Source: Roseateles sp. (GTDB lineage: Bacteria; Pseudomonadota; Gammaproteobacteria; Burkholderiales; Burkholderiaceae_C). From it: 64,000 nt of DNA. Position 1 is the first letter of the stretch. Each line of letters opens with the position of its first letter. The DNA is taken from assembly GCA_052436255.1 (NCBI GenBank), contig JBQVNP010000011.1, positions 3,572 through 67,571 on the forward strand, written 5' to 3'. Made by a program: the position numbers and the translations under genes. This document shows positions 1,904-50,917 of this stretch, in pieces. The notes under the pieces are model-generated. The model was not told where the DNA came from and searched no databases. It saw only the letters and a list, made by a program, of their open reading frames with translations.

Positions 1904-2077
1904 ATGGAAGAGAAGCCGAAGCGCCCTCGCGGCAGACCGCCCGCTCCGCCAGAGTCCGCCCTGACCGCGTTCCTTGGCATGCGCGTCAGCCCGGCCTTGA
2001 AAGACAAGGTGGACCACCTGGGCCACGCCTGGGCGCGGGCCGTGCTGGAGAAGGCCAAGCCGCCGAAGGACGGATAG
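1904..2077 (+). CDS. 57-aa putative DNA-binding micro-protein (GRP/AT-hook-like plus RHH-like)
   Basis: Hand translation MEEKPKRPRGRPPAPPESALTAFLGMRVSPALKDKVDHLGHAWARAVLEKAKPPKDG; similar to the ORF at 35372-35548. Confidence 0.7.
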   Translation: MEEKPKRPRGRPPAPPESALTAFLGMRVSPALKDKVDHLGHAWARAVLEKAKPPKDG

Positions 2078-2906: not shown

Positions 2907-4345
2907 GGGTGATCCTTTACTGCGGGGGCTTGGACGGCAGCCTCGAATCGGCCCCATGCCTTGTCCACCATCGGCTGGAGCAGCGACGACATCCGCTCCC
3001 GCACCTCGGCCATCGCGTCGGCATGGCCGTAGTTGCTCGTCCACTCGTGGCGGTCGGTGCCCAGCACCTCGTCAAGCAGGGCGTCGATGTAGTCGCTGGC
3101 GGCGTCACGCTCTTCCAGGACCTGCATCAGCGCCTTGTCGTCAGGTGCAGGCGCGGGGGCTTGGGCGGCGGCCTCGGCCACGCGGGCGGCGAAGTAGCGG
3201 TCGAGCCACTTCTTGAGCCGATCCATCATGCGCTGCGGGCCGAAGGCTACGTCTTCCGGGTAGCCGGGCTCCCACTCCAGGCGCAGCGGCGTCCAGTCAG
3301 CCGGGATCGCGGTCTTGCCGTCCTCCAGCAGCTTGTAGCCGTCAGGCGCGGCGGCTTGGGAGTCGCCGCTGTTTCTGACCTTGAGCACGTCTTCGAGGGA
3401 TTCGGCCAGCGAGAACAGCGGCGCCACGAAGCCGGTTCCGTACTCGCAGATTTCGTTCACGAAAGCCGCGCGCTCGTCGGGCGTCAGGCCGCGCCATTCG
3501 GGGGCCGTCCCCTTGGGCTGGGGATGGGCAGCGTCGGCAGGTTGGCGAACCGATGGCAGCGGGCCGCAGCCAGGCAGCGTCAGGCCGCCCGGCAGGACAT
3601 GCACCTCGGTGCGGATGCGTTCGGCGATTTCCTCGCAGGCGAGCTGGTAGCCCGCATGCAGCGGCGTCGGCATGTCCACGTCAGCGCCGCCGATAGGCAG
3701 CGCGGCGACATCGGCAACGATCCGCAGCGCGCGGTGCACCTCCAGCGCCGAGGCGAACTCGATGGCCTGCTCATCGGTCAGCGAATCCCCCTCTGCTGGG
3801 GCTCGCATCTCTTCGTCCAGCCGGGTCAGGTCGGCCAGGCCGGCGCGGCGGGGATCGGGCTGGGCGGCAAGGGCGGCGCGGACCTTCCCCAAGTCGTCGC
3901 TGTGGGCGTAGATCGTGGCCGTCGAGTCGCTGTCGAGCTGGATGTCGGCGACCATCATGCCGGCGCCCCATTCGACAAAGCGCGGGGCGGCAGTCCAGGT
4001 CAGCTCTGCACCCTCAGGGGCTTGGATCGCGCGCAACCGGGCAATCTCGGCCAGGACCGCCTTCGGCGACATGACCTGCAGGCCCAGGGCGTCGGTGACG
4101 TTGGAGCCGAACGTCACCCACTCGCTGACGCAGCCTTTCGACGACGCCAAGTCGCGAGACAGCGCACCGGCGCGGCCCTCGGTCTCGAACAGTTGACGGC
4201 CCGTGATTTGCAGCTGCTCGGCAGCTTCATCCAGCAGCTGGGCGATGTCGTCGGCCGTCTCGGCTCGGCACAGGTCGGCCTCATCGCGCAGGCGCTGGAC
4301 CAGCGACTGTGCAGGCTGGGGGGATTGGATTTGTTCGGTGGTCAT
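2903..4345 (-). CDS. Mosaic phage hypothetical protein (480 aa)
   Basis: Long ORF, ATGA-coupled to the Thg1-like gene. Confidence 0.75.
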   Translation of the reverse strand: MTTEQIQSPQPAQSLVQRLRDEADLCRAETADDIAQLLDEAAEQLQITGRQLFETEGRAGALSRDLASSKGCVSEWVTFGSNVTDALGLQVMSPKAVLAEIARLRAIQAPEGAELTWTAAPRFVEWGAGMMVADIQLDSDSTATIYAHSDDLGKVRAALAAQPDPRRAGLADLTRLDEEMRAPAEGDSLTDEQAIEFASALEVHRALRIVADVAALPIGGADVDMPTPLHAGYQLACEEIAERIRTEVHVLPGGLTLPGCGPLPSVRQPADAAHPQPKGTAPEWRGLTPDERAAFVNEICEYGTGFVAPLFSLAESLEDVLKVRNSGDSQAAAPDGYKLLEDGKTAIPADWTPLRLEWEPGYPEDVAFGPQRMMDRLKKWLDRYFAARVAEAAAQAPAPAPDDKALMQVLEERDAASDYIDALLDEVLGTDRHEWTSNYGHADAMAEVRERMSSLLQPMVDKAWGRFEAAVQAPAVKDHP

Positions 4346-32862: not shown

Positions 32863-35340
32863 ATGACGACAACCGTAACCTTGCTGAGGAATGTTCGCGC
32901 TGGGACGGGCGGCGGCACATGGAGGGCTGGTGACACGCATGTTGCAAGCGACGACTACGCCGACTTTCTGATCGGGCGCGGTGACGCTTATGACGCGAAC
33001 GGCGTAATCAAGGACGTTGATCGATCCTTGGTGTCAGGGGGTGGGATCACCGACACATCCGCCACAGCGAGCGCAATTTCGTCGGCACTCCAGTCGTCTG
33101 GCGCTGCCAGCGTTGCCGCAATCACCGGCTCCATCCCAGAGACCATCCTGCTGGGCTCCAACACCAATCTGACGCTGCAGCCCGGGACGGTGCTCCGCGC
33201 CACCGGAACGCGGCAACACACGTTGATCCGCACCGGCAATGCGGAATTTCTGGCTGACGACGGCGCGCTGCCTGGAGTGTCGATCTACTGCCACGACGAG
33301 GTGACTGCAGCAGGCACCGGGACTCTGCGCTACACGCACGCCACCACGTCGCTGGCCTGGCTGGCTCCGGGCGAGTCGAGCTACGGCGCCGAGGTCAACA
33401 TTGGCGCCGTCGTCAACGCCAGCACCGTCGCCATCTTCACGCTGCCGGGCGCCTCGGCTGGCAAGCAGCTCTATGTCTACGTCGCGCCGACCCTGACCGG
33501 CACCGTGAGAACCGGCGTGATGACGCGTCGCGTCCGCGTCGAGCCCGTGACCGGCGCGAAGTCGATGACCTGGACCCGCGCGAGCAACGTCCGAGCCATC
33601 AACCAAGCCGACCACGGCCGCCGGATCGGCGATTTCGTCATCTGCTTCGGGCCGTCTGGCAACGTGCGGCACGATTTCATCACTGCTGTCACTGCCAACA
33701 GCTACACCATCCCCGACCCTGGCGCCGACCAACCTGTCGCACAGACCGGCCGCGCCTACGGCGTGCGCAACATCGTCATCAATGGCACTGGGGCAACTCT
33801 GGATTACCGCAAAGGTGCGCTCACGACTGCTGCGATGAGCAACCTTCACGCGGTGATCCTCAACGCATGCTCGGACGTGGAGTTGATCAACCTCGAAGTC
33901 AGCAACACGACCAAGTACGCCCTGCTGCTGTCGGGCTACAAAAATGTCAAGGTCAGCGGCTTCCGCACCTTCCGCGACGACTCGTCCAACGTTGCAGGAA
34001 ACAGCGACGTGGTGCATCCCCTCGGCCCCGGCCGGGGCCTCGTCGTAGAACGCACACGCGCCCAGGGTGGCGACAACCTGATCGGCGTCGGCTGCTCGGA
34101 TTTCTTCGACTACGTGCTCAACCTGCCGGCCTACGGCGACCTGTCGCTGATCGGCGGTCGGGTGACCGACTCGTGGGGCGAGAACACGCACCAGCAGCCC
34201 GTTCGGTTCTACAACGGCAACGGAACCAACGCCATCCGCGATTGGACCGTGGATGGCATCTATGGCACCTATGACACCAACGTCGATGCGGCGGTGGCGG
34301 TCATCATGGACACGATGTCCAACATCGACGGAAACGGCATTGTCGGCATGGTTGACTCTGGCGCCACCAACATCGACGGGCTGACTCTGCGCAACATCAG
34401 CGCGACGCGCGTGGACGGTCAGCCGAGTTGCGCCTTCATTTCGCGCGGCGCCGGCACCCGGCGCGGCCTCAAGATCGACCGCCTGCGGCCCCGCACGTTT
34501 TCCGTCAGCACCAGCGCCACGGTGCACATTGAAGATTCGACGTGGGAGGGCGTTGAGGCCGAGGTGTTCGGTGCAGGCTCCTTTGCGGGCGCCATCATCG
34601 GCCTGTTTGGCACAGGCACTATTCGTGACCTGCGCGTGGACGCAACGCAGCTCGTCTGGGACAACGCCCTGGGCAGCGGCGCACGCGGCGCCGTCGTGCT
34701 GCTCAACAACGCCAACGCCGTCATCACGAACCTGCGCGTTCGCGTGTTGGGCAGCGACAGCAGCGCCTCGGGCAACAAGGCCAATGTCGTCTGGATCAAC
34801 AACGGCACCGTCACCCGCTACTACGTCACCGGCCACTTCGGCGCCGGGACAGATGCCATCTTGCGGGTGTCGAATGGCTCCTGCACGTACTTCACTGCCA
34901 ACGACCTGGAGCACGAGGGTAGCTTCGTCGCCGTGGCTGACGCTCCTGTGAACCACATCAACCTCAACGAGGTGTATCACTGGAACGGCGCCAGTTCGTG
35001 CATCGCCTACAACGTGGCTGCCGGTGGCACTGTCCGCGTCCGTGCCCGCCAAGTTCGGTGCAGCAACCGATTCATTCGCAACACGGCGGGCAGCACAGCC
35101 TTTTTGCTCGAAGCCCAGTCTACTGAGCTGACGAGCAGCGTGTTCGTGGTCGATGCCGGCACGCCGGCCCTGCGCCTGCAGGGGCCAACGGACATCAGCA
35201 TGGACGGCGCGCTGCTGGACGCCACCGTGGGCAACCACGCGCCCGGCGCGAGCTTCTACAACACCAACGCCGCTTTCGGAGCCCCCGGCGTCGGCGCTTA
35301 CGTGCGCGGCGCGACGACGTGGACCCGAGTGGCCGCCTGA
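32863..35340 (+). CDS. 825-aa virion protein, probable right-handed beta-helix (pectin-lyase-like) fibre/depolymerase
   Basis: Repetitive beta-helix-like segments (NLHAVILN, NSDVVHPLG, GGDNLIGV); G/A/T/N-rich; short N-terminal domain. Confidence 0.65.
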   Translation: MTTTVTLLRNVRAGTGGGTWRAGDTHVASDDYADFLIGRGDAYDANGVIKDVDRSLVSGGGITDTSATASAISSALQSSGAASVAAITGSIPETILLGSNTNLTLQPGTVLRATGTRQHTLIRTGNAEFLADDGALPGVSIYCHDEVTAAGTGTLRYTHATTSLAWLAPGESSYGAEVNIGAVVNASTVAIFTLPGASAGKQLYVYVAPTLTGTVRTGVMTRRVRVEPVTGAKSMTWTRASNVRAINQADHGRRIGDFVICFGPSGNVRHDFITAVTANSYTIPDPGADQPVAQTGRAYGVRNIVINGTGATLDYRKGALTTAAMSNLHAVILNACSDVELINLEVSNTTKYALLLSGYKNVKVSGFRTFRDDSSNVAGNSDVVHPLGPGRGLVVERTRAQGGDNLIGVGCSDFFDYVLNLPAYGDLSLIGGRVTDSWGENTHQQPVRFYNGNGTNAIRDWTVDGIYGTYDTNVDAAVAVIMDTMSNIDGNGIVGMVDSGATNIDGLTLRNISATRVDGQPSCAFISRGAGTRRGLKIDRLRPRTFSVSTSATVHIEDSTWEGVEAEVFGAGSFAGAIIGLFGTGTIRDLRVDATQLVWDNALGSGARGAVVLLNNANAVITNLRVRVLGSDSSASGNKANVVWINNGTVTRYYVTGHFGAGTDAILRVSNGSCTYFTANDLEHEGSFVAVADAPVNHINLNEVYHWNGASSCIAYNVAAGGTVRVRARQVRCSNRFIRNTAGSTAFLLEAQSTELTSSVFVVDAGTPALRLQGPTDISMDGALLDATVGNHAPGASFYNTNAAFGAPGVGAYVRGATTWTRVAA

Positions 35341-35364
35341 TCCCAGCCCCTGCCGGTGATGACA

Positions 35365-35390
35365 GGCCCGCCTATTTGGCGGGTTTTTTC
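35365..35390 (+). terminator. Intrinsic terminator
   Basis: CCCGCC-TATTT-GGCGGG-TTTTTT. Confidence 0.85.
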
Positions 35391-35548
35391 GTCTCAGCCT
35401 GCTCGACGAGCTGGCGTAACCAGGCCTGGCCGCCGTTGGCATCGACCTTTGCCCACTGAGCGGGCGTTAACCGCACGGAGCGCTGCTCAAGGCGTTCATC
35501 GGCGGGCTTGAAAGGGCGTCCGCCCTTGTTCTTGGGTTCGGTGGTCAT
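35372..35548 (-). CDS. 58-aa putative DNA-binding micro-protein (GRP/AT-hook-like plus RHH-like)
   Basis: Hand translation MTTEPKNKGGRPFKPADERLEQRSVRLTPAQWAKVDANGGQAWLRQLVEQAETKKPAK; divergent from the recombinase. Confidence 0.75.
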   Translation of the reverse strand: MTTEPKNKGGRPFKPADERLEQRSVRLTPAQWAKVDANGGQAWLRQLVEQAETKKPAK

Positions 35549-35632
35549 GCCGGATTCTCAATCACGCAAACCGGGGGTGCCTACACCTAGGTTGTCGTGA
35601 TTGAATAACCGTATGACTAAACGGTTAGCACC

Positions 35633-36739
35633 ATGACGGCCGAGGCCCTTGCAGGCGTCCTAGAGTCAATCGCCGTGGCGATCCGCGCGCTGCCTGCCGG
35701 GCCCGTGCAGATCGCACCGGCAGTGCAGCCGGCGCCAGCTCCGCCGCCTCCGCCGCCGGCTGCTCCGCTTCCACCGCCGCCGCCGCCACCGCCGGCACCG
35801 ACTGTCGAGCCGGCGCAACCCGCGCCCGAGACACCGGCCGGCATGACCATTGCGACCTGGCTGCCCACCTACCGTCAGATCATCAAGGACCGCGGCTACA
35901 ACCCGCAGACGATCCGCAACCGAGGCGCGGTGATCAAGTTCATCGAGACCAGCCTGGGGCCTCGCCCGCTGGCCGCGATCAAGCCGCACGAGATCACCAC
36001 GCTCCTGAAGACCTGCTCGCCGCACAAGGCCGTTCGAGTGCTGGGCGAGCTGCGCGACGTCTTCACGGAGGCCATCGCAAACAACGAGGCCGAGGGCAAC
36101 CCGGCCAGCCTGGTCAAGCCGCCGCGGGCGCCGGGCATCCGCAAGCGGCTCACGCTCGAGATTTGGCAGGACATGCTGCTGATGGCGTCGCTCGGCCAGC
36201 AGCGCTGGGTGATCGCAATGCTGTTGCTCGGTCTGCACACTGGCCAGCGCCGCGCCGACCTGGCCAAGATGCGGTTCGACGATGTCGTCGACGGCCGCCT
36301 CAGAGTGGAACAGCAAAAGAAGGCCGGCAAGCCCACGGGCGCTCGGCTGGCCATCCCGCTGTCTATCCGGCTGGAATGCACGGGCATGACCCTTGGCGAG
36401 GTCATCGAGTTCTGCGAGCGGATCGCCAAGCGGGGCGACACGCTGCTGCGGCAGGCGAGCGGCAAGCCCATCGAGATGTCCAGCCTGTCGGCGCGGTTCC
36501 ACGAGCTCATCGTCGCCGTGTGTGGCGAGGGCGCCTATCAGCAGTACGAATGGCCGTCGCTCCACGAGGTGCGGTCGCTGGCGGCCCGGACCTACATGCA
36601 CGAAGGCATGCCAGCCGAGACGGTGCAGACCCTGCTGGGGCACAAGGCGGCCGAGATGACTGCGATCTACCTGGACGACCGCGGCCTGTCGGCGAAGGAA
36701 TGGAAAACCGTCGAGGTGGCAGCGCCTGAAGCTGCCTAA
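35633..36739 (+). CDS. Lambda-Int-like tyrosine recombinase lacking the arm-binding domain
   Basis: TGQRRADL, EQQKK, SLHEVRSLAAR, LLGHK, AIYLDDRG match lambda Int R-K-HxxR-H-Y; N-terminus is a short helix plus poly-Pro. Confidence 0.92.
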   Translation: MTAEALAGVLESIAVAIRALPAGPVQIAPAVQPAPAPPPPPPAAPLPPPPPPPPAPTVEPAQPAPETPAGMTIATWLPTYRQIIKDRGYNPQTIRNRGAVIKFIETSLGPRPLAAIKPHEITTLLKTCSPHKAVRVLGELRDVFTEAIANNEAEGNPASLVKPPRAPGIRKRLTLEIWQDMLLMASLGQQRWVIAMLLLGLHTGQRRADLAKMRFDDVVDGRLRVEQQKKAGKPTGARLAIPLSIRLECTGMTLGEVIEFCERIAKRGDTLLRQASGKPIEMSSLSARFHELIVAVCGEGAYQQYEWPSLHEVRSLAARTYMHEGMPAETVQTLLGHKAAEMTAIYLDDRGLSAKEWKTVEVAAPEAA

Positions 36740-43100: not shown

Positions 43101-45760
43101 CCATCACCGGCAACGGCCTGTTCGCAGACCAGCAGTCGCTGCAAAGCATCATCGGCGGCGGGCTCAACCTGCAGGACTACGTCGACGTCAACAGCACGAA
43201 GAAGTTCTTCGGTATCAAGGTCAGCAACAAGAACAGCACCCAGTATTCGCCGGCAGATGCCCAGCTGCAGCAGCAGTTCGGCCAGGTGTTCAAGGACATC
43301 TACTCGACCATCCTGCAGGCCTCCGATCCGCTCGACCTCGCCTTCGACCAGGTCAAGGCCAAGCTTGACGCCTTCGTGGTCGACATCGGCAAGATCGACC
43401 TCAAGGGCCTGACCGGCGAGCAGATCTCCGAGAAGCTCGCCGCGGTGCTGGGTGCGGCCAGCGACAACATCGCCACCGCGGCCATTCCCGGCCTGCAGGC
43501 CTTCCAGAACGTGGGCGAGGGCTACTTCGAGACGGTCATCCGCGTGGCCTCTGGCATCGAGACGGCCGAGGCTGCGCTCGAACTGCTCGGCGTCAGCGCC
43601 ATCAAGTTCAACGACATCGCGCTCAAGCAGGGCGATGTGGCCGCCGAGATCGTGCGCGGCTCCATCGCCAAGGCTGAGACGGTGGCCGGCCAGGTCATCA
43701 CGCTGTTGGGCCGCGAGATCACCCTGCCCAAGCTCTCTTCGGTCGGCCAGATCATCTCCAACCTCGACGGCAGCGCCGAGGAGCTGGCCTCGGCCTACAG
43801 CTCGCTGGTCGACGTGCGCGATGTGCTGATCTCCATCGGCGCCAGCGGCGAGAGCCTGACCACGGCCATGATCCGCGGCGCCGGCGGCCTGGACCAGCTG
43901 CAGACGGGGCTGTCCGACTACCTCGACAACTTCTTCACCGAGGCCGAGCGCACCGCCGCCGGCCGCACGCGTCTGCAGGGCCAGTTCGACCGCCTGGGCC
44001 TGGGCGAGCTGCCGCAAACCCGCGAGGCCTTCCGCGAACTCGTCACCGGCATCAACACCAGCACCGAGTCGGGCCAGAAGCTGTTCGCGCAGCTGGTGGG
44101 CCTGTCGGGCGCCTTCGCCGAGCTGGTGCCGGCCGTCGAGTCGGTCGCTGACACCACGGCCGAGACGATGCGGCGCCTAACGCAGAGCTACGGTGACAGC
44201 CGCGCGCAGTTGGAGATCGAGCTGCAGCGCGCGCTTGGCGACGAAACCGGGGCCCGCGCCCGCGAGCGTGCCCTGCAGCTGGCGCGTGACTCGGTCGGTC
44301 TGTCGCCGGCAGACGCCGAGGCTCTGGCCGGCCTCTACGACTACAACCGCGCGCTGCGCGACCAGATCGACGCCGCGCGCGCCGCGGTGGAAGCTCAGAA
44401 GGCCATCGAGGCAGCGCAGAAGAGCGCCGCCGAGGCCGCCATGCGCGCAGCCGAAGCGCTGCAGCGCACCTTTGACGATTTGGCAGGCACCCGCTTTGAC
44501 CTAGAGAACGAGTTGCTGACCCAGCAGGGCCGGCCCGAGGACGTGCTGCGCCGCACCCGCGAGCGAGACCTTGGACAGCTCACAGGCGGCCTCACGCCCG
44601 AGGACGCGGCGCGAGTCGCAGCGGCCTACGATTTCAACGCCGCGTTGCGCCAGCAGATCGATGCGATGGTCGCGGCCAAGACTGCGGCGGAGCAGGCCGC
44701 GCAGGCAGAGGCACAGCGTGCCGCCGATGAGCAGCAGCGGCTAGCCGGCGTCGCGCAGCAGCGCGAGGGGCTTGAAGGCCGGCTGCTGCAGCTGCAGGGC
44801 GATACGGCCGCGCTGCGCGCACGCGAACTGCTCGGAATCGATGAATCGAACCGTGCCATTCTGGAGCGCATCTTCGCGCTTGAGGATGAACAGGCCGCCG
44901 CGAGCCTTGCAGCGCAGGCGGCCCGGGATCTTGAGGCGGCAACCAAGGCCGCAGCCGACGCCGAATCTGAGCGCTTGCGTGGCATCGCCAGCGAGCGCGA
45001 CAACCTCGTCGGCCGGCTGCTGCAGGCCCAGGGCAACACGGCGGCGATTCGTGAGCGTGAGCTGGCCGCGCTCGACGCCAGCAACCGATTCATCCTGGAG
45101 CAGATCTTCGCGCTTGAGGATCAGCGCGCCGCCAATGAAGCCGCTACCCAGGCCGCCCAAGAAGCGGCCCGCGCCGCAGAGCAGCTGCGCAGCGCCTGGC
45201 AGTCGGTTACCGACACCATCTTCGACGAGGTCAAACGCATTCGCGACCTCATGGGCGGCGACTCGGCGCAGAGCCTGGCCAGCGCTCAAGCGCAGTTCGC
45301 CATCACGACCGCACAGGCGCGCGCAGGCGACCAAGAGGCCGCGAAGCTGCTGCCCAGCCTGAGCCAGACGCTGTTGCAGTTGGCCGAGCAAAGCGCCACC
45401 AGCCTGCTGGACGTCGAGCGCATTCGCGCACAGGTGGCGGCGAGCCTGGAGCAGACCGGCGGCAGTCTCGTCGCCCGGTTCGGTCTCTCCGCGCCGCGCT
45501 TGTCCACCGGCACCAACTACGTGCCGCAGGACATGCTGGCTGTCATCCACAAAGGCGAAGCCGTGGTGCCGCGGCAGTTCAACCCGGCGGCATCCGGTGC
45601 AGCGGGCGGCAAAGACCGTGCGGCCGCCTCCATCGACGCAATGCGTGAAGAGAACAAGGCGCAAGCCCTTGCCATCGTGAAGCTCCAAACCGAGATCGCC
45701 AAGCTGCTGCGCAAGTGGGACGGCGAAGGCGTCCCAGAAGAAAGGTCGGTCGCGGCATGA
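40136..45760 (+). CDS. Tape measure protein (1874 aa)
   Basis: QFTDIITSLQGGQAPLTVFLQQGGQLKDMFG lambda-type N-terminus; long Ala-rich helices; GTNYVP..MLA.IHKGEAVVP C-terminus. Confidence 0.95.
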   Translation: MTENTREVELKATMDATGVRAGVEQAKTALGDLGRTAEREGTKAGAGVEKAGDGAGKAATKIERETRSMIASIERATAAFKAGEKGGASYFEALAAQRGVSGDALKPYLEQLRQAEAAQKAATKGLGTMEISAKQTAAALRGVPAQFTDIITSLQGGQAPLTVFLQQGGQLKDMFGGAGNAARALGGFVAGLVTPFTLAAAAVGGLAVAYFKGAKEGEAFNRTLILTGNAAGVTAMQLSGIAASISSFGVTQGAAAAALNQLAETGKVGADNLGRFAAAAVQLERVGGPAVEETVKAFAELGKAPLQAALKLNDTTNFLTVSLYQQIKALEEQGRATEAAKVAQEAFAAVIEDRFPKLEANLGLIERRWLAIKDAIKGAADQALNIGRPETLDELQRKLFDLQTSRSEASGNGFFTGTRRTSVVLAELDREIAAVSKKTAEMLKQQGIGDVLAQQQADTLKSVQAGNEFAKIAEQSLDKQAKLALEISRIENIGLAAGKSRAEIETQIAAARSKAADKGDATAAARALEQQAALLERLAGLSGTYAQDLQRLQAVRQRTNQSDADYVALVTELIAKQPFAVALAKQQAEAFKQVADAEDRGLDIREKYLASLNQSAASVGKQVQALKDEAEAALIAAAGQVSLAQAMEQVAIARLQERQRAAKGDDSAIAALQREIDKRRELVGLIGGKEARKAAEDASKELDKYLDPSRAESFGEALTRAFDGAGNSLARLSNSLQLYSRQQVDIGKQQALVNASNDPAKKLRAQIKINEDAQKSTIGLYAGMAGAAKGFFSEGTKGYKALEAAETAFRAYQLASDLVKGASAAAVAIASQGQGDPYTAFPRMAAMAAAMAALGFAVTGGFASGPSGGGDGAPVATGKGTVFGDANALSESISRSTDRLSETASLQLSTQSGMLASLRSIENNIGGITGLVLRGQESQGSAGERFGINEGTRTSGIGSVFGSVTPIGLVDKLLFGGRITNALFGKKTTITGNGLFADQQSLQSIIGGGLNLQDYVDVNSTKKFFGIKVSNKNSTQYSPADAQLQQQFGQVFKDIYSTILQASDPLDLAFDQVKAKLDAFVVDIGKIDLKGLTGEQISEKLAAVLGAASDNIATAAIPGLQAFQNVGEGYFETVIRVASGIETAEAALELLGVSAIKFNDIALKQGDVAAEIVRGSIAKAETVAGQVITLLGREITLPKLSSVGQIISNLDGSAEELASAYSSLVDVRDVLISIGASGESLTTAMIRGAGGLDQLQTGLSDYLDNFFTEAERTAAGRTRLQGQFDRLGLGELPQTREAFRELVTGINTSTESGQKLFAQLVGLSGAFAELVPAVESVADTTAETMRRLTQSYGDSRAQLEIELQRALGDETGARARERALQLARDSVGLSPADAEALAGLYDYNRALRDQIDAARAAVEAQKAIEAAQKSAAEAAMRAAEALQRTFDDLAGTRFDLENELLTQQGRPEDVLRRTRERDLGQLTGGLTPEDAARVAAAYDFNAALRQQIDAMVAAKTAAEQAAQAEAQRAADEQQRLAGVAQQREGLEGRLLQLQGDTAALRARELLGIDESNRAILERIFALEDEQAAASLAAQAARDLEAATKAAADAESERLRGIASERDNLVGRLLQAQGNTAAIRERELAALDASNRFILEQIFALEDQRAANEAATQAAQEAARAAEQLRSAWQSVTDTIFDEVKRIRDLMGGDSAQSLASAQAQFAITTAQARAGDQEAAKLLPSLSQTLLQLAEQSATSLLDVERIRAQVAASLEQTGGSLVARFGLSAPRLSTGTNYVPQDMLAVIHKGEAVVPRQFNPAASGAAGGKDRAAASIDAMREENKAQALAIVKLQTEIAKLLRKWDGEGVPEERSVAA

Positions 45761-46656
45761 CGACACCATTGCGAATCGTCAACCCGCTGCCCGTCACGGA
45801 TAGCGTGCTGGTGGCAACCGACGTCCCCGAGGACTCCACTTCGGCGTGGAGCGGCGCCACGACCTACAACGTTGGCGACCGCGTGCACCTGGTCGGCACG
45901 CACAAGGTCTATGAGAGCGTCGCGGCAAGCAACCTCAACAACAACCCTGCCACCGAGCCAGAGTGGGTAGAGGTCGGCCCCACCAATCGCTGGGCGATGT
46001 TCGACCGAAGCAACAGCACGCAGACCGCGCAGAGCACGAGCTTCTACTACCGCCTGCAGCCGACGGCCGCCTACAACGTGGTCGCGCTGCTCGGGCTCAC
46101 CGGCGCGCTGACGCTGCGCGTGCGCGTGACGCACGGCTCGCTGGGCTTGCTCTACGACCAGACCATCGACCTGACCAGCCTGCCTGCCCAGTCAGGCTGG
46201 TGGGAATGGTTCTACGGCGAGCGCCGCGGCCCGACCCTGGCCCTGGTCGACGTGCCCGGAATCATCGGCGCCGAGCTGCGCGTCGACGTCACCGGCACGA
46301 CCCAGTTGGCGGCCGGCGTGCTGCTCTTCGGCCAGGCCAAAGACATCGGCATCTTGGTCCAGCAGGGCGCGCGGGTCGGCATCCAGGACTACAGCCGCAA
46401 AGAGACCAACGACTTCGGCGATGTCGTCCTCGTGCAGCGCGCTTTCGCCAAGCGCGCGAGCTACGACCTACCCATCCGCGCAGAGCTGGTGGACGAAGCG
46501 GTCAGCTTCCTCGCCAGCATCCGAGCAACCCCCTGCCTATTCATCGCGCCAAAGTACGAGAGCGCGGTTGTGTACGGCTTCTACAAGGAGTTCGACGTGA
46601 ACATCGCCTATCACTCCGTCAGCGAATGCTCGCTGCAGGTGGAGGGTCTGACGTGA
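45757..46656 (+). CDS. Tail tip protein with CBM5/12-like module
   Basis: AWSGATTYNVGDRV...KVYES...P...EWVEVG. Confidence 0.7.
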   Translation: MTTPLRIVNPLPVTDSVLVATDVPEDSTSAWSGATTYNVGDRVHLVGTHKVYESVAASNLNNNPATEPEWVEVGPTNRWAMFDRSNSTQTAQSTSFYYRLQPTAAYNVVALLGLTGALTLRVRVTHGSLGLLYDQTIDLTSLPAQSGWWEWFYGERRGPTLALVDVPGIIGAELRVDVTGTTQLAAGVLLFGQAKDIGILVQQGARVGIQDYSRKETNDFGDVVLVQRAFAKRASYDLPIRAELVDEAVSFLASIRATPCLFIAPKYESAVVYGFYKEFDVNIAYHSVSECSLQVEGLT

Positions 46657-47339
46657 CCACCATCTCTGATCTCCCGCCGGCCCCGCAGCCGACCGACGAC
46701 ACCGCGACCTTCAACACCAAGGCGTTCGCGATCCTGGCTGCATGGCAGACCATGATTGACGAACAGAACGCGCAGGCCGGAGAGAACAACACGGCGGCAG
46801 CGACCGCCACAACTGGCGCCGCCACCGCGACGACGAAGGCGGCCGAGGCCTCGGCCCACGAGCTCGCCTCGGCCGCCAACGCCACTGCGGCTGCATCCAG
46901 CGCCGGCGCCATAGCCTGGGTCAGCGGCACGACCTATGCCGTTGACGACGCCAGGAAGTCGCCCATCGACCACCGCGTCTATTCGCGCCTCACAAATGGC
47001 GCTGGAACGACCGACCCAAGCGCGGACCCGACGAACTGGGAGCCCATCGCGCCGAACGGCCTCCAACTGGTCATTGAAGCCGGTACCAGCGCGGCCATCG
47101 CAGCCAACACCGACACGGCGTTCACGAACGCTGCGGCATGCGCTGCGACGGTGCCGGCAATCTCGGTTGGCGCGAGCTTCGTCGCTCGCTTCGATAACGG
47201 GCGGCTCGACAACACCGTCGACCTCGGCGCGCGCTCGATGATCGGTCCGAATGGGCAGATCCGCGGCGGCGTCATCACTCTCAACACCGCACCTTTGATC
47301 AGCCTGCGCTGGTGGGGTGACTACTACCGGAGCAACTGA
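46653..47339 (+). CDS. Short tail fibre-like protein with CBM5/12-like module
   Basis: Ala/Thr-rich stalk then AWVSGTTYAVDD...DPSADPTNW; GTG start. Confidence 0.65.
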   Translation: MTTISDLPPAPQPTDDTATFNTKAFAILAAWQTMIDEQNAQAGENNTAAATATTGAATATTKAAEASAHELASAANATAAASSAGAIAWVSGTTYAVDDARKSPIDHRVYSRLTNGAGTTDPSADPTNWEPIAPNGLQLVIEAGTSAAIAANTDTAFTNAAACAATVPAISVGASFVARFDNGRLDNTVDLGARSMIGPNGQIRGGVITLNTAPLISLRWWGDYYRSN

Positions 47340-47791
47340 TGAGCGGCACCCTTTCTGAAATGGGCTTTGGCGGCGGCAGCCGCGTCACATCACTGCCTTG
47401 CGGCTTCAGCGCCGCATCCGGAATCTTGAGCCTCGGTCCGGCGATCACCACGCTCTCAGGCGCAACGCTGGCCGGCACATCCAACCTGAAAACCCTGCTC
47501 AACGTCACCGGCAGCCGGGTGCGGCTGAACGCTCTGAAGTTTCAGGCGGCTGATGCGACAGCACGCAACGTGCGCGTCGTCATCACCATCGATGGCGTTG
47601 TGGTTTTCGACAACACAGCCGCCTGCGCCGACACGAACCATCGGGCCGCGGTGGGGGTCGTGAAGTCGGACACCAACTCCTCGCTGCTGTTCCAGCCTGT
47701 GGACGCGCTCAACTCGGTCAAGATCGAGTTCGGGTGCAGCCTGGCCGAGACTGACAAGCTCTCTTTCTCGTACAACTACGAGGTGCGGTGA
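47339..47791 (+). CDS. Tail-associated hypothetical protein
   Basis: 150-aa beta-rich ORF, TGATG coupling. Confidence 0.6.
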   Translation: MSGTLSEMGFGGGSRVTSLPCGFSAASGILSLGPAITTLSGATLAGTSNLKTLLNVTGSRVRLNALKFQAADATARNVRVVITIDGVVVFDNTAACADTNHRAAVGVVKSDTNSSLLFQPVDALNSVKIEFGCSLAETDKLSFSYNYEVR

Positions 47792-48111
47792 TGAGTGAAG
47801 ACAGCTACGTCACACGCCAGTCTGGCGGCGCCACAGTGATCCAACTGAGCAGGCCCGCGCCGGTGGATTCGGTTGTCGTCGTGACGATGGAGCAGGCCCG
47901 CCGGGCCCTGCTGCAGGCGGGCCTGCTCGGGGCCGTCGAAGCTTCCATAGCCGCGCTGCCCGAGCCGGACCGCAGCCAAGCGCAGATCACCTGGGAATTC
48001 AAAACCCAAGTCTCCCGGACCGGCCCGCTGGTGCTGCTGATCGCCGGGCAGTTGGGCCTCACCGAAGCCCAGATCGACGCGCTCTTCGCTGCCGCAGCCA
48101 CGATCACCTGA
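47788..48111 (+). CDS. Probable tail fibre assembly chaperone
   Basis: VTMEQARRALLQAGLL...WEF...R...L...LGLTEAQIDALFAAA. Confidence 0.6.
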   Translation: MMSEDSYVTRQSGGATVIQLSRPAPVDSVVVVTMEQARRALLQAGLLGAVEASIAALPEPDRSQAQITWEFKTQVSRTGPLVLLIAGQLGLTEAQIDALFAAAATIT

Positions 48112-48127
48112 CGCCAAGAACCTTAGC

Positions 48128-48157
48128 CCACCAGCCCGCCGCGTGCGGGCTTTTTTA
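48128..48157 (+). terminator. Intrinsic terminator
   Basis: AGCCCGC-CGCGT-GCGGGCT-TTTTT. Confidence 0.8.
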
Positions 48158-48171
48158 CGTCTGGACATCCC

Positions 48172-48531
48172 ATGCGCAAGATCCTGCTCGCCGCGGCCCT
48201 GGTGGTCGCCTGCTCCTTTGCCAGCGCCATCGAGCGCAAGTGCCGCACCGATGACCTCTGGCGCGGCCCCGACAAGACCAAGCACATGCTCGGCGGCGCC
48301 GCCATTGCGTCAGCTGTCACGCTGGCCACCAAAGAGCCTCACTGGGGCTTCGCTGCTGGCCTCGCCGTCGGCGCTGCCAAAGAGATCTGGGACCGGCGCG
48401 GCAGCGGGACCTGCAGCTTCCAGGATTTCGCTGTCACCGCCGGCGGCGCTGCAGCCGGCGCTTACGGAACGGCCTGGCTGATCCTGCCGCAGCGGCGGGG
48501 CGTCGCGGTCGCCTATGTGAAGGCGTTCTGA
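48172..48531 (+). CDS. YfiM/DUF2279-like exported membrane protein
   Basis: Signal peptide; DKTKHM...GAAKEIWD...SFQDFAVT. Confidence 0.7.
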   Translation: MRKILLAAALVVACSFASAIERKCRTDDLWRGPDKTKHMLGGAAIASAVTLATKEPHWGFAAGLAVGAAKEIWDRRGSGTCSFQDFAVTAGGAAAGAYGTAWLILPQRRGVAVAYVKAF

Positions 48532-48857
48532 TGCAGTACCGCGAAACCGACCGCATGGGGCTCGACCCCGTCCCCAGCCGATGGAGCATTGACAGAAAGG
48601 TTCCCGTGTGGGGATTGCTGATGATGGCGAGCGCCATCGCAGGGCAGGCCATCCTGCTGTGGAACGGCCAGCAGTTGCAGGCCCAGCGCCTGGACGACTA
48701 CGGGACCAAGATCGTCGCTCTCACGGTCGAGGTCAAGGAGCTGAACGCCCAGCTCAGCGCCAAGGCCAGCAAGGACAACGAGCAGGACCTGCGCCTCAAT
48801 GAGTACAGCCGTCGGCTGCTGCTGCTTGAGGGCGACCGGTACGGGGGGCGGCGATGA
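48531..48857 (+). CDS. Lysis-region membrane protein (one TM plus coiled coil)
   Basis: VPVWGLLMMASAIAGQAILLW then heptad repeats. Confidence 0.65.
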   Translation: MQYRETDRMGLDPVPSRWSIDRKVPVWGLLMMASAIAGQAILLWNGQQLQAQRLDDYGTKIVALTVEVKELNAQLSAKASKDNEQDLRLNEYSRRLLLLEGDRYGGRR

Positions 48858-49075
48858 AGCTGATCGACGACGCCGGCAAGGTCTGGCACAAGTTGTGGTC
48901 GGTGCGGCTGGCGCTGCTGGGCGCGCTGTTCTCGGCGGCCGAGTTCGCTGTGTCTCTGGCGCCTGATGCTGTGGCCGATGTGGTCGGGCAGGGGCGCTTT
49001 GCCGCCGTCGCCTTCGTCGTCGGCATCGGCGCTGCCATCGCGCGCCTGGTGCAGCAGCTGAGGCTCAAGGAATGA
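48854..49075 (+). CDS. Holin
   Basis: MKLIDDAGKVWHKLWSVRLALL; two TM helices; precedes endolysin. Confidence 0.75.
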   Translation: MKLIDDAGKVWHKLWSVRLALLGALFSAAEFAVSLAPDAVADVVGQGRFAAVAFVVGIGAAIARLVQQLRLKE

Positions 49076-49650
49076 GCGCCCGCAAGCCCATCGGCAAGCG
49101 CACCAAGGCTGGTGTTCTGGTCGGCGCCGTGGCTGGCGGGCTCATGCTGGCCAGCCCTCAACTGCTCGACTTCCTGGGCGACTGGGAAGGGCGCGGCCGC
49201 ACGGTCTACGCCGACAAGCTGGCGGGCGGCCTGCCCACGGCGTGCGGCGGGTTGACGAACCACACCAGCTCCAAGCCGGTGATCGTCGGCGAGGTTTGGA
49301 CCGAGGAGGAGTGCGCGGCCGGCATGAGCGAGGTTGTGACGGCCGGACAGCTCAAGCTGGCCGACTGCTTCACGCGCCAGCCGCCGCAGCACGTCTTCAA
49401 TGCCTTCAGCAGCCATGAGCACAACTTCGGCGTGGCCGCGACTTGCGGGAGCCAGGCCATGGCCGCCTTCAATGCAGGCGACACCGCAGCGGCCTGCCGG
49501 TTGATCGCCTACACCCCGGACGGAAAGCCGAACTGGTCTTCCGTCAAGACGGGCCGCACGCTGCCGAACGGCAAGCCCGAGCTGCGCTTCGTGCAGGGCT
49601 TACAGAACCGGCGCCTGGCCGAGATGGCGATGTGTGAGGGGCGGAAGTGA
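49072..49650 (+). CDS. GH24 lysozyme, probable SAR endolysin
   Basis: Gly/Ala-rich N-terminal anchor; WEG...YAD...PTACGG catalytic E-D-T; GLQNRRLAE. Confidence 0.88.
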   Translation: MSARKPIGKRTKAGVLVGAVAGGLMLASPQLLDFLGDWEGRGRTVYADKLAGGLPTACGGLTNHTSSKPVIVGEVWTEEECAAGMSEVVTAGQLKLADCFTRQPPQHVFNAFSSHEHNFGVAATCGSQAMAAFNAGDTAAACRLIAYTPDGKPNWSSVKTGRTLPNGKPELRFVQGLQNRRLAEMAMCEGRK

Positions 49651-50192
49651 TCACCGCGCTCGCCATCCTCCGCCGCGTGCCGGTGCTGGGCTGGGTCGTG
49701 CTGGCCCTGGGGCTGCTGCTGGGCGCGCAGACCCTGCGCCTCAGCGCCTCGCAGGCCGACGTGGCGCGGGCGAAGGCCGAGACATCCAAGGTGCGCGCCG
49801 AGTTCGGGGCCTACCGCGAAACCCAAGAGCGCAACGCCCGCCAAGCGCTCGAATCCTTCGCGCGCGACGCCGCGCTCACCGCCAAGAAACGCCAAGAGGC
49901 CGCTGATGCCGAACACCTCGCCCGCCAAGCCGCTGAGGCTGATGCTGCTCGCCTGCGCCGCACTGCTGGCCAGCTGCAGCGCTACTCCGCCGATCTCGCC
50001 ACCTCCCTCGGTGATCGTGCGCGAGATACCGCCACTGCCAGCAGCTGCGAGACAGCAGACGCGCGCATCGTCCGGCTCTCCCTCGTGGTCGGCGCGCTTG
50101 ACGACTTTGCGGCAGAGGCAGCAGGAGCTGCTGACAGCGCCATTCGCGCCGGCCAGCTCTGCGTCGCAAGCTACGACGCGCTGACGCCGTAG
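49647..50192 (+). CDS. Rz-like i-spanin
   Basis: N-terminal TM plus coiled coil after endolysin. Confidence 0.8.
   Translation: MITALAILRRVPVLGWVVLALGLLLGAQTLRLSASQADVARAKAETSKVRAEFGAYRETQERNARQALESFARDAALTAKKRQEAADAEHLARQAAEADAARLRRTAGQLQRYSADLATSLGDRARDTATASSCETADARIVRLSLVVGALDDFAAEAAGAADSAIRAGQLCVASYDALTP
49942..50184 (+). CDS. Rz1-like o-spanin (embedded lipoprotein)
   Basis: MLLACAALLASC lipobox, Pro-rich, nested out of frame in Rz. Confidence 0.75.
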   Translation: MLLACAALLASCSATPPISPPPSVIVREIPPLPAAARQQTRASSGSPSWSARLTTLRQRQQELLTAPFAPASSASQATTR

Positions 50193-50205
50193 CGATGAGA
50201 CGGCC

Positions 50206-50505
50206 ATGCCCTGGCACCTTCAGCCCACCCGCCTGACAGCCCGCCTGTTCTCGGCGAGCCGCAGCTTCGAGCAGCGCGACCCGCCCGACGTCATTGCCCA
50301 GGTAGACCTGACTGCCGACGGCGCGGCCTACATCCACGCCACCATGAGCCGAGCAGATGGCGCCACGCCCCCGGGCGTCTGGCGCGAGCTGATCCGCAAG
50401 CTCCGTGACTTCGGTGTCACGTCCGTGAGCTGGGACCACAAGGGCAAGACCGGCGGCGGCGACACGGGCAGGGCCTGGCAGGACACGGTGGCGGTGGAGC
50501 GCTAG
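50206..50505 (+). CDS. Hypothetical protein
   Basis: 99-aa ORF after lysis cassette. Confidence 0.55.
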   Translation: MPWHLQPTRLTARLFSASRSFEQRDPPDVIAQVDLTADGAAYIHATMSRADGATPPGVWRELIRKLRDFGVTSVSWDHKGKTGGGDTGRAWQDTVAVER

Positions 50506-50865: not shown

Positions 50866-50917
50866 CACCTCCCTTACACGGAGATTGTCGGCGGTTCGAG
50901 CCCGTCAGCGCCCACCA
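50866..50917 (+). pseudogene. attR: 3' fragment of tRNA-Val(TAC)
   Basis: CTCC-CTTACAC-GGAG anticodon arm, GGCGG-TTCGAGC-CCGTC T arm, AGCGCCC-A-CCA end; no 5' acceptor strand or D arm. Confidence 0.88.

What the first reader, a model, noticed from the sequence alone, without database searches (positions are those of the whole stretch)
35372..36739. Second, arm-less lambda-Int-like recombinase cassette inserted in the head-neck operon
Seen: between the 825-aa head-module gene and the head-tail connector sit a terminator, a 58-aa antisense regulator and a 368-aa tyrosine recombinase. All lambda-Int catalytic positions are present (R in GQRR, K in QQKK, HEVR, LGHK, Y in AIYLDDRG). Established: lambda Int needs its N-terminal arm-binding domain for directional att recombination. 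Here that region is replaced by a ~20-aa helix and a poly-Pro linker. Position far from attR suggests it is not the prophage integrase. Inference: an autonomously regulated core-site-only recombinase, for example genome dimer resolution, swapping or inversion of the neighbouring fibre gene, or a minimal mobile cassette riding in phage.
Basis: partly seen in the sequence, partly recalled or inferred. Interest (0 to 1): 0.75.

Follow-up and report, generated by a model that had tools for sequence, protein, structure and literature searches.

The report
Tailspike-linked arm-less phage recombinase module
A second recombinase inside this prophage lacks the usual arm-binding domain and is docked at one of two conserved DNA sites that bracket the swappable host-recognition part of a tailspike gene, so it most likely helps phages exchange host-range cassettes, although its activity is untested.

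Summary
Window 35633-36739 encodes an intact lambda-Int-family recombinase. All catalytic residues are present, but the arm-binding domain is replaced by a conserved ~22-aa helix and a Pro-rich linker. A divergent 58-aa RHH-like gene and a terminator lie upstream. It is not the prophage integrase: a canonical integrase sits at attL just left of the window, and 52-bp att repeats end at window 50866-50917.

The 825-aa neighbour is a beta-helix tailspike/depolymerase, not a head protein. Its variable part is bracketed by two conserved sites whose ~13-nt arm forms inward-facing inverted repeats with different 7-nt spacers. Site L (33019-49, spacer GGTGTCA) lies in frame at the anchor/variable junction. 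Site R (35338-66, spacer TGCCGGT) follows the stop codon.

Homologous recombinases sit in unrelated phage backbones. Seventeen of about 24 (outside one subfamily) have site L upstream. Two phages that are 99% identical differ only between the two sites. The site pair is far commoner than the recombinase, which was present in 3 of 25 site-bearing loci.

Best reading (about 0.4): a Rin/Rci-like core-site recombinase that promotes tailspike-cassette exchange between phages. Main rival: an element that merely docks at site R. No flipped cassette was found. This is a new variant of a known kind.

The parts
32863..35340 (+). Tailspike/depolymerase gene (825 aa). It has an N-terminal anchor (aa 1-~56), a junction SLVSGGGITD, and a beta-helix receptor-binding/enzymatic part (aa ~61-825).
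   Evidence: AF2 model pLDDT 86.8, with residues 1-60 disordered and the rest all-beta. Foldseek top hits are Klebsiella phage depolymerases 7vul and 7w1c and LKA1 tailspike 4ru4 (E 4e-8 to 2e-4). An 86%-identical domain sits after the adaptor of a SU10-like podovirus.
33019..33049 (.). Site L: backbone-side arm GATCGATCCTT (degenerate), 7-nt spacer GGTGTCA (33030-33036), cassette-side arm GGGGGTGGGATCA. It lies in frame and encodes L-V-S-G-G-G-I.
   Evidence: G GTG TCA GGG G is invariant in 17 of 17 recombinase loci despite rare codons (TCA 8%, GGG 15%). The 10-mer occurs 9 times in the 5.7-Mb genome but lies upstream of the recombinase, always on the opposite strand, in 16 loci. It is present in frame in 70 of 80 viral loci with GC 0.44-0.70. 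Coordinates.
35338..35366 (.). Site R: the tailspike stop codon TGA, cassette-side arm TCCCAGCCCC, 7-nt spacer TGCCGGT (35351-35357), then a degenerate arm GATGACAGG.
   Evidence: It sits at a fixed offset from the recombinase in about 22 loci. In 48 non-redundant copies downstream of site L the consensus is cTGAtTCCCATCCCC-TGCCGGT. It marks the left edge of the DNA shared between modules in unrelated backbones.
35364..35392 (+). Rho-independent terminator for rightward (late-operon) transcription. On the other strand it encodes the C-terminal KKPAK* of the small protein.
   Evidence: Terminator scan. It is conserved in all module copies and encodes KKPAK*. A similar hairpin follows site R in the recombinase-less L093.
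35372..35548 (-). A 58-aa divergent small protein, with a basic N-terminal arm (GGRPFKP) followed by a strand and two helices. It is an RHH-like putative repressor.
   Evidence: Conserved next to the recombinase in 9 loci. AF2 gives beta-alpha-alpha, pLDDT 73. No Pfam, PHROG, NCBIfam or PADLOC hit. Paralogue at window 1904-2077.
35549..35632 (.). Divergent control region: outer inverted repeat TCAATCACG (35558-66) / CGTGATTGA (35596-604), inner dyad AAACCGGGGGTG..CCTAGGTT (35568-93), and a 7-codon uORF MTKRLAP* (35613-36) overlapping the recombinase ATG by ATGA.
   Evidence: The outer arms differ between module subtypes in step with the small-protein subtype. The uORF is present in 8 of 9 copies. 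Coordinates. No sigma-70 consensus promoter found. No Rfam family.
35633..36739 (+). Arm-less lambda-Int-family tyrosine recombinase (368 aa): N-terminal helix aa 1-22, Pro-rich linker aa 23-70, core-binding domain aa 71-~170, catalytic domain aa ~171-362.
50866..50917 (.). attR of the prophage: a 52-bp copy of the 3' end of the tRNA gene at attL. attL and the canonical integrase lie left of the window, at C11:1573-1624 and C11:1797-2924.
   Evidence: A perfect 52-bp direct repeat. Integrase hit at C11:2439-2891. It shows no similarity to the second recombinase.

Best explanation
The gene encodes a core-site-only tyrosine recombinase of the Rin/Rci kind, dedicated to the receptor-binding cassette of the adjacent tailspike gene. 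The cassette is the depolymerase part of the tailspike. It is bounded by two asymmetric sites that share one ~13-nt arm (TTCCCAnCCCC) as inward-facing inverted repeats but have different 7-nt spacers: GGTGTCA at site L, inside the gene at the anchor/variable junction, and TGCCGGT at site R, just after the stop codon and next to the recombinase. L and R differ from each other within a genome, yet each keeps the same spacer across many phages. Flipping the segment would give only a truncated protein. So the favoured reaction is L-with-L and R-with-R recombination between two co-resident phage genomes. That is a natural recombinase-mediated cassette exchange, which moves a receptor-binding domain onto another phage's anchor. 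Only one partner would need to encode the enzyme. The conserved N-terminal helix may replace the arm domain by helping a second monomer load on the non-conserved arm, as proposed for the extra domain of Rci. In the window's form, expression is insulated from the late operon by a terminator. It is probably repressed by the divergent RHH-like protein and coupled to a 7-codon uORF. Shown: the anatomy, the site conservation, the association and the natural cassette replacement. Inferred: that this enzyme cuts these sites, where the crossover lies, the exchange reaction itself, and the roles of the helix, the RHH protein and the uORF.
For: 1. The enzyme is intact and arm-less, and a separate canonical integrase sits at attL.
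2. Homologues lie inside unrelated backbones: upstream of portal, protease, TerL or adaptor, and in SU10-like podoviruses. They are nevertheless almost always directly downstream of a modular tailspike-type gene.
3. Site L lies 1-3.2 kb upstream, always on the opposite strand, in 17 of about 24 loci outside the MKKRK subfamily (16 in the census plus L030). About 0.04 would be expected by chance. Site R sits at a fixed offset from the recombinase.
4. Site L is conserved at the DNA level against codon usage and across phages with GC 0.44-0.70.
5. L and R share the arm in inverted orientation. Their spacers differ from each other but are each invariant across phages.
6. L063 and L064 are 99.8% and 99.2% identical on either side of unrelated 1334-bp and 1858-bp segments whose edges are sites L and R. 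An SNP falls in the cassette-side arm of R.
7. The window's cassette recurs at 82% DNA identity in a podovirus, with homology running through site R and the hairpin. The same domain family sits on at least 11 unrelated anchors.
8. The site geometry matches sfx, with a 7-bp core and one conserved arm. The locus layout matches Rin.
Against: The site pair is much commoner than the recombinase, which was present in only 3 of 25 site-bearing viral loci, so the sites persist without it in cis. The arm motif also occurs as a generic intergenic linker and in 33 of 41 genomes of the genus, most of which lack the recombinase. The same palindrome sits inside an IS66-like element. The edges of a non-homologous block coincide with the sites whatever the crossover mechanism, so the L063/L064 pair does not prove site-specific exchange. 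The spacer assignment is itself inferred: a different register (conserved outer arm plus nTGGGAA core) cannot be excluded. One recombinase subfamily (N-terminus MKKRK...) sits in early regions without site L.
Confidence: 0.42

Rival explanations
1. The recombinase, with or without its small regulator, is a selfish site-specific element. It uses the widely conserved post-tailspike site R as its landing site in phage genomes and has no role in tailspike exchange.
For: The module is a discrete ~1.4-kb unit whose left edge is site R. It is patchy, present at about 12% of site-bearing cassettes. It has its own terminator, repressor-like gene and control region. L093 looks like an unoccupied site, with the same cassette, an R-like site and a hairpin but no recombinase. 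Homology ends about 25 nt before the recombinase stop codon and the C-terminal tails vary, as if the right end lay inside the gene.
Against: No direct repeat and no second copy of the TGCCGGT spacer flanks the module. In the window's form the module begins after the hairpin, not at the spacer of site R. No circular or empty/occupied isogenic pair was found. This reading does not explain why L and R share an arm in inverted orientation.
Confidence: 0.22
2. Sites L and R are short conserved linkers used by general homologous recombination for domain swapping, in the way the His-box motifs of T-even fibre genes are thought to work (recalled, not checked). The recombinase is an unrelated accessory gene that sits in the same hotspot and acts on an unknown substrate.
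For: Most cassettes with the sites lack the recombinase. The arm is a generic intergenic linker in these phages, also in early operons. The interval after capsid or adaptor genes is a variable hotspot in related phages. The small regulator type also accompanies an unrelated gene.
Against: The adjacency of the recombinase to the tailspike 3' end holds wherever that gene sits in the genome. That is hard to get by chance among the several dozen genes of a phage of this size. Homologous-recombination linkers have no need to be inverted copies of one another, or to have the arm-7-nt-arm geometry seen in L063, L010 and the IS copies.
Confidence: 0.14
3. It is an alternative integrase. Site L acts as attP and recombines with the identical palindrome found in the host, for example inside IS66-like elements. 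Integration would split the tailspike gene in the prophage state.
For: A perfect 13-7-13 palindrome with the site-L spacer lies about 60 nt inside the end of an IS66-like element in five genomes of the genus and as a remnant at G000 C105:14135. In L035 the recombinase lies at the edge of a phage-like region next to tRNA-Arg.
Against: In every locus with enough sequence the recombinase is internal, with phage genes on both sides. No prophage was found split at site L. The genomes that carry the IS palindrome lack the recombinase.
Confidence: 0.07
4. It is an ON/OFF inversion switch. The recombinase flips the segment between the inverted arms of L and R, switching the tailspike off.
For: L and R share 13-17 nt in inverted orientation. 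Known relatives in function, Rin and Rci, are invertases.
Against: There is no alternative C-terminus: the inverted reading is open for only 8-51 codons in 12 of 13 loci. In 16 of 17 recombinase loci and 70 of 80 viral loci the long ORF runs through site L. In-silico inversion of the exceptions restores nothing. The 7-nt spacers differ between L and R.
Confidence: 0.05
5. It resolves phage genome dimers or circularises the genome, in the way Cre/lox or Xer do.
For: It is an arm-less tyrosine recombinase with a nearby palindromic region.
Against: The prophage is integrated and has its own integrase. Xer family models score far below their cut-offs. The tight link to tailspike cassettes is left unexplained.
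Confidence: 0.03

Closest known systems
Rin shufflon of Bifidobacterium prophages (Mavrich et al. 2018, PMC6109161)
   Same: The order is the same: constant RBP N-terminus, short asymmetric crossover site at the junction, variable C-terminal part, arm-less tyrosine recombinase. A canonical arm-bearing Int is encoded elsewhere in the same prophage. The rix 11-mer TTCCCTAACCC resembles the arm here, TTCCCAnCCCC.
   Different: Rin has several stored alternative C-termini, and inversions were observed. Here there is a single cassette, two sites with different spacers, and no flipped state in about 90 loci. The enzyme is lambda-Int-like in its CB and catalytic domains and has a conserved N-terminal helix and Pro linker. 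The hosts are Burkholderiales (Roseateles/Paucibacter/Pelomonas).
R64 shufflon: Rci recombinase and sfx sites (PMC11852207 and references therein)
   Same: A lambda-Int-family enzyme without an arm domain. Asymmetric sites with a 7-bp core and one conserved arm, the other arm variable. The site lies in frame at a constant/variable protein junction, and the recombinase gene is next to the variable DNA.
   Different: Rci carries an extra C-terminal domain, whereas this protein ends like lambda Int and has an extra N-terminal helix. sfx cores are identical within the shufflon and drive inversions among stored segments. Here L and R cores differ. It is phage tailspike rather than plasmid pilus adhesin.
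Lambda integrase (PDB 1z19, 1p7d, 1z1b)
   Same: About 32% identity over the core-binding and catalytic domains, all catalytic residues, and even the C-terminal EWxxxE tail.
   Different: No arm-binding domain. It is not next to the prophage att sites. No sign of arm-type sites.
Cre/lox and Flp/FRT cassette exchange with heterospecific sites (laboratory RMCE; from general knowledge)
   Same: A cassette flanked by two sites that share arms but differ in spacer, so that only like sites recombine and the cassette is exchanged rather than deleted or inverted.
   Different: That is an engineered design. Here the arrangement is natural, the sites are asymmetric, and the reaction has not been shown.
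Tyrosine recombinases inside structural modules with unknown role (Tyrovirus gp50, phage Perkons, lactococcal 949 group; PMC9703825)
   Same: An additional tyrosine recombinase encoded among virion genes and judged unlikely to be the integrase.
   Different: There it lies between the neck and tape-measure genes, with an 11-6-11 palindrome downstream. No link to an RBP cassette was reported.

Membership tests
Tyrosine recombinase / phage integrase superfamily (PF00589) | Catalytic domain with the R-K-H-R-H-Y residues | tested here: met
   PF00589 at 58.9 bits against a cut-off of 27.1. R206, K229, H311, R314, H337 and Y346 align with lambda Int.
Lambda-type integrases | Core-binding domain (PF22022) followed by the catalytic domain | tested here: met
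   PF22022 at 27.6 bits against a cut-off of 27. End-to-end alignment with Int 74-355, E 1e-33.
Lambda-type integrases | [quoted passage not shown] | tested here: not met
   Residues 1-70 match no Pfam, PHROG or PDB entry. They form a conserved helix and a Pro-rich linker.
Lambda-type integrases | Gene adjacent to the prophage att site and used for integration | tested here: not met
   The att repeats are at C11:1573-1624 and window 50866-50917, with another integrase at attL. Homologues are internal to phage genomes.
Rin-type phage RBP shufflon | Arm-less tyrosine recombinase next to an RBP gene with a constant N-terminus and a crossover site at the junction | tested here: met
Rin-type phage RBP shufflon | Several alternative C-terminal cassettes in the locus, and inversions seen among relatives | tested here: not met
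   There is a single cassette. The inverted reading gives 8-51 nonsense codons. No flipped state was found.
Rci/sfx shufflon | Asymmetric site with a 7-bp core and one conserved arm | tested here: inconclusive
   The sequence conservation fits and sfx is described this way. The cleavage positions are unknown.
Rci/sfx shufflon | Rci-specific C-terminal domain | tested here: not met
   The protein ends at the lambda-like tail. No NCBIfam model scores above weak Xer-like matches.
XerC/XerD and integron integrases | Score above the curated family cut-off | tested here: not met
   XerA/integron 27 bits against 220, XerC 25 against 335, XerD 22 against 330.
Known anti-phage defence systems (PADLOC) | Match to a defence-system protein model | tested here: not met
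   No hit for the recombinase, the small protein, the tailspike or the 163-aa protein.
Phage tailspike/depolymerase (right-handed beta-helix), for the 825-aa neighbour | Beta-helix fold similar to solved tailspikes, with a modular N-terminal anchor | tested here: met
   Foldseek probability is 1.0, but the TM-scores are low (0.2-0.39), as is usual for long helices of different length.

The most novel reading that the evidence does not exclude
Sites L and R form a population-wide exchange standard. A shared pair of heterospecific recombination sites brackets the receptor-binding domains of tailspikes in siphoviruses and podoviruses with GC content from 0.44 to 0.70. Phages that carry this arm-less recombinase act as active swappers. 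They capture ready-made host-range cassettes from any co-resident phage or prophage that bears the sites, which would be natural recombinase-mediated cassette exchange. The related intergenic linkers could extend the same grammar to other modules.
Probability: 0.3. Interest if true: 0.85.

Novelty: new variant of a known kind. Interest (0 to 1): 0.68.

Why it matters
Swapping of receptor-binding proteins is the main route by which phages change host range. It is usually put down to chance homologous recombination. Invertible fibre segments and the Rin shufflon are the known programmed cases, and they choose among alternatives stored within one genome. If this enzyme exchanges a single cassette between genomes at two conserved heterospecific sites, it would be a programmed, portable mechanism of host-range exchange across virion types. 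It would also explain why some recombinases sit inside structural operons. In practice it could supply a compact recombinase and site pair for engineering phage tailspikes. The conserved, rare-codon site at the anchor/variable junction is also a practical marker for finding tailspike domain boundaries in metagenomes.

Tried and rejected
1. Integron-like cassette array. The repeated TGA-TTCCCAyCCCC elements in L012 and the gene inserted between site R and the hairpin in L063 suggested one. I dropped it as the main reading once the arm proved to be a generic intergenic linker. It is also present in the early operon of this prophage and in 33 of 41 genomes of the genus.
2. Partner sites or direct repeats flanking the module. 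None were found.
3. Isogenic empty site for the window's own backbone. The closest adaptor relatives are only 53-59% identical and too diverged. L093 serves as an unoccupied cassette end instead.
4. Productive or ON/OFF inversion. No alternative frame and no flipped copies. The 802-aa antisense ORF (33034-35442) is an Arg-rich shadow frame of a kind seen antisense to the other genes of this 66% GC region.
5. Defence or anti-defence role. No PADLOC hit.
6. Known RNA in the control region. No Rfam match. No sigma-70 promoter consensus.
7. Pfam, PHROG and NCBIfam identity for the small protein. None, even at E 10.
9. A virion-packaged recombinase, with the N-terminal helix as a capsid-targeting signal. 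I considered this because of the head-module position. I set it aside because the position follows the tailspike gene rather than the head genes.
Full report
**Observation**

The three ORFs are present as described. The 368-aa product (35633-36739) is a tyrosine recombinase. It hits PF00589 at 6.9e-16 and PF22022, and PHROG integrase families. Residues 71-362 align end to end with lambda Int 74-355 in solved structures (E 1e-33). R206, K229, H311, R314, H337 and Y346 occupy the catalytic positions, and the C-terminal tail is lambda-like.

Residues 1-70 match nothing, but they are genuine coding sequence. The helix MTAEALAGVLESIAxAIRALP and a Pro/Ala linker of variable length recur in more than 50 homologues, and more distant relatives have other short N-terminal helices. 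A + strand terminator lies at 35364-35386. The flanking genes are a major capsid protein, a head-tail adaptor and a head-closure protein.

**It is not the prophage integrase**

The window is C11:3572-67571 of a 5.7-Mb assembly. A 375-aa integrase lies just left of the window (C11:1797-2924). It sits next to a tRNA gene whose last 52 nt are repeated perfectly at window 50866-50917. These repeats are attL and attR of a ~52.9-kb prophage. The two recombinases share no detectable similarity. The second one is ~37.6 kb from attL and ~14 kb from attR.

**A discrete module in unrelated phages**

Close homologues (60-85% identity) are common in Roseateles/Paucibacter/Pelomonas genomes and in metagenomes. 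DNA similarity between the window and loci from other genomes is confined to window 35335-36715. That interval covers the terminator, the small antisense ORF, the control region and the recombinase.

The surrounding phages are unrelated. The module or its homologue lies:
- upstream of a portal (L008), a head protease (L007, L010, L028), a large terminase (L023) or a head-tail adaptor (window, L030);
- in SU10/P22-like podoviruses (L012, L037, L063);
- next to a 3011-aa polyvalent protein (L036) or next to other integrases.

The small ORF is a conserved ~60-aa protein whose C-terminal KKPAK* is encoded by the terminator hairpin. It folds as a strand plus two helices, an RHH-like topology (pLDDT 73), and matches no known family. 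The outer inverted repeat of the 84-bp control region changes with the small-protein subtype. A 7-codon uORF overlaps the recombinase start codon in 8 of 9 copies. A paralogue of the small protein sits at window 1904-2077, so this regulator type is not specific to the recombinase.

**The neighbour is a modular tailspike**

The 825-aa protein has no family hit. Modelled with 31 homologues, it gives a confident all-beta structure from residue ~61 (pLDDT 86.8). Its best structural matches are phage capsule depolymerases and tailspikes (7vul, 7w1c, 4ru4).

The genes upstream of the recombinase in other loci are mutually non-homologous over most of their length. They do share N-terminal features and a junction motif xVSG(A/G/D)G. 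Some carry GDSL-type or GQSNE-type esterase domains.

In the SU10-like group the backbone homology runs 12-70 codons into this gene and resumes at the recombinase module. The window's depolymerase domain recurs at 86% protein identity directly after the adaptor of a SU10-like podovirus. Across its homologues the domain sits on at least 11 unrelated anchors.

**Two conserved sites bracket the variable part**

Site L is at window 33019-33049 and encodes the junction. On the coding strand it reads: backbone-side arm, GGTGTCA, GGGGnTGGGAAT. In all 17 recombinase loci examined the 12 nt G GTG TCA GGG G are invariant, although TCA and GGG are rare codons in these genes (8% and 15%) and the flanks differ.

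Site R is at window 35338-35366. It starts at the tailspike stop codon and reads TGA-T(T)CCCAnCCCC-TGCCGGT. It is followed either by the hairpin and module or, in more distant relatives, directly by the recombinase ATG.

L and R therefore share a ~13-nt arm as inward-facing inverted repeats, but they have different 7-nt spacers. A few copies are full 11-to-13 / 7 / 11-to-13 palindromes (L063, L010).

The site-L 10-mer occurs 9 times in the whole genome. In 16 non-redundant recombinase loci it lies 1-3.2 kb upstream, always on the opposite strand. L030 adds a seventeenth.

This layout, a 7-bp core with one conserved arm and one variable arm, is that of Rci sfx sites. The order of elements at the locus is that of the Rin shufflon.

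**Natural replacement**

Two viral contigs, L063 and L064, are 99.8% identical up to site L and 99.2% identical from site R onward. Between the sites they carry unrelated segments of 1334 bp and 1858 bp.

At nucleotide level the sequences are identical through ...ATCCCC-GGTGTCA-GGGG and then diverge. On the right, the cassette-side arm of R carries one SNP, and everything from TGCCGGT onward is identical.

This is what crossovers in the two spacers would produce. It is not proof, because the edges of a non-homologous block mark the end of similarity whatever the mechanism.

The window's cassette is 82% identical in DNA to that of podovirus L093, from shortly after site L through site R and the hairpin. 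L093 has no recombinase.

**What limits the claim**

- The arm is also a generic intergenic linker in these phages. Copies occur in the early operon of this prophage and in 33 of 41 genomes of the genus, most of which lack the recombinase.
- Searching from the site outward, GGTGTCAGGGGNTGGGA occurs in at least 120 viral contigs. In 70 of the 80 returned it is in frame near the start of a long ORF, in phages with GC 0.44-0.70. That is strong DNA-level conservation. Yet only 3 of the 25 loci with enough downstream sequence carry the recombinase, while 13 have site R.
- The association is therefore strong from recombinase to sites and weak from sites to recombinase.
- The same perfect palindrome also lies about 60 nt inside the end of an IS66-like element in five related genomes and as a remnant at G000 C105:14135. 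I cannot explain this.
- A recombinase subfamily with N-terminus MKKRK... sits in early regions without site L.
- No read-level test was possible.

**Interpretation**

Flipping the segment would fuse the anchor to 8-51 nonsense codons. No locus looks flipped, and in-silico inversion rescues none of the short-ORF cases. So a Rin- or Rci-style inversion is not supported.

L and R differ from each other within each genome, while each keeps its own spacer across very different phages. That is the reverse of what an intragenomic inversion system needs. It is what exchange between genomes would select for.

I therefore favour (0.42) a core-site recombinase that promotes L-with-L and R-with-R exchange of the tailspike receptor-binding cassette between co-resident phages, acting also on recombinase-less partners.

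The main rival (0.22) is that the recombinase module is an element that simply docks at the conserved site R. Both readings make site R its substrate. Lesser rivals are:
- homologous-recombination linkers with an unrelated recombinase (0.14);
- alternative integration at IS-borne palindromes (0.07);
- an ON/OFF inversion switch (0.05);
- dimer resolution (0.03).

**Novelty**

Arm-less tyrosine recombinases next to phage RBP genes are known (Rin, 2018). Recombinases of unknown role inside structural modules have been noted before. What is new here is the combination:
- a single cassette;
- two heterospecific asymmetric sites;
- population-wide conservation of those sites across virion types;
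- a lambda-Int-like enzyme with an N-terminal helix in place of the arm domain;
- the RHH and uORF control module.

This is a new variant of a known kind, and the exchange mechanism is still to be shown.

Noticed in passing
G000 C105:14121-14155; loci L085, L086, L088, L090, L091: A perfect palindrome GATTCCCATCCCC-GGTGTCA-GGGGCTGGGAAT, identical to site L, lies about 60 nt inside the GCTTAC end of an element whose last gene ends ...RIDELLPHRWSP*. I recall that as an IS66-type TnpC C-terminus but did not test it. The element is found in five genomes of the genus that lack the recombinase. C105 holds a 59-nt remnant upstream of an ABC-transporter operon. The 15-mer is found in 8 of 36 genus genomes and 0 of 24 other genera.
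   Followed up: partly
window 1326 (-), 5074 (-); C11:3259 (-); many loci: A generic intergenic linker, TGA-T(T)CCCAyCCCC-N-GCACA..ATG, joins consecutive genes in early and late operons of these phages. The 14-mer, with up to 1 mismatch, gives 86 hits in 33 of 41 genus genomes, against 2 for the reversed control. It may mark module boundaries or act in translational coupling.
   Followed up: partly
window 35613-35636: A 7-codon uORF (MTKRLAP*) overlaps the recombinase start codon by ATGA. It is conserved as MT(K/E/D/T)R(L/N/I/F)xx* in 8 of 9 module copies. No Shine-Dalgarno sequence precedes the recombinase ATG.
   Followed up: partly
window 1904-2077 (+): A 57-aa paralogue of the small RHH-like protein (38% identity, E 5e-8) lies antisense within the early-left operon, beside the gene at 2079-3044.
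   Followed up: partly
L014-L019, L034, L066-L069: A recombinase subfamily with N-terminus MKKRKLKKLLKQAL... is 66-72% identical in the CB and catalytic domains. It sits in early regions, next to RecT, a serine integrase or another tyrosine integrase. It is preceded by an R-like linker (CCCCTGCCGAC) but has no site L.
   Followed up: no
L035:6688-9089: An 81%-identical recombinase lacks the small ORF and site R. It lies next to tRNA-Arg(TCT), which is itself abutted by another integrase. This may be a tandem-element junction or a case where the enzyme sits at an element end.
   Followed up: partly
L063:3536-4600 and L012:8798-9700: Extra genes sit between the tailspike stop/linker and the recombinase module: a 310-aa gene in L063/L064 and three small ORFs, each followed by a linker copy, in L012. 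These look like secondary insertions at the same junction.
   Followed up: partly
PMC6109161 versus window 35341-35350: The Bifidobacterium Rin crossover site rix (TTCCCTAACCC) matches the arm found here (TTCCCAnCCCC) at 8 of 11 positions. This could be coincidence or shared recognition by related enzymes.
   Followed up: no
window 45715-50500: By ORF size alone, no other large fibre or tailspike-sized gene follows the 1874-aa tape-measure gene before the lysis region and attR. The 825-aa protein encoded in the head-neck interval may therefore be this phage's main receptor-binding protein.
   Followed up: no
L036:1784-9518: In one metagenomic contig the module abuts a 3011-aa polyvalent protein (LPD5, LPD1, ART-PolyVal, LPD38) on the opposite strand.
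   Followed up: no
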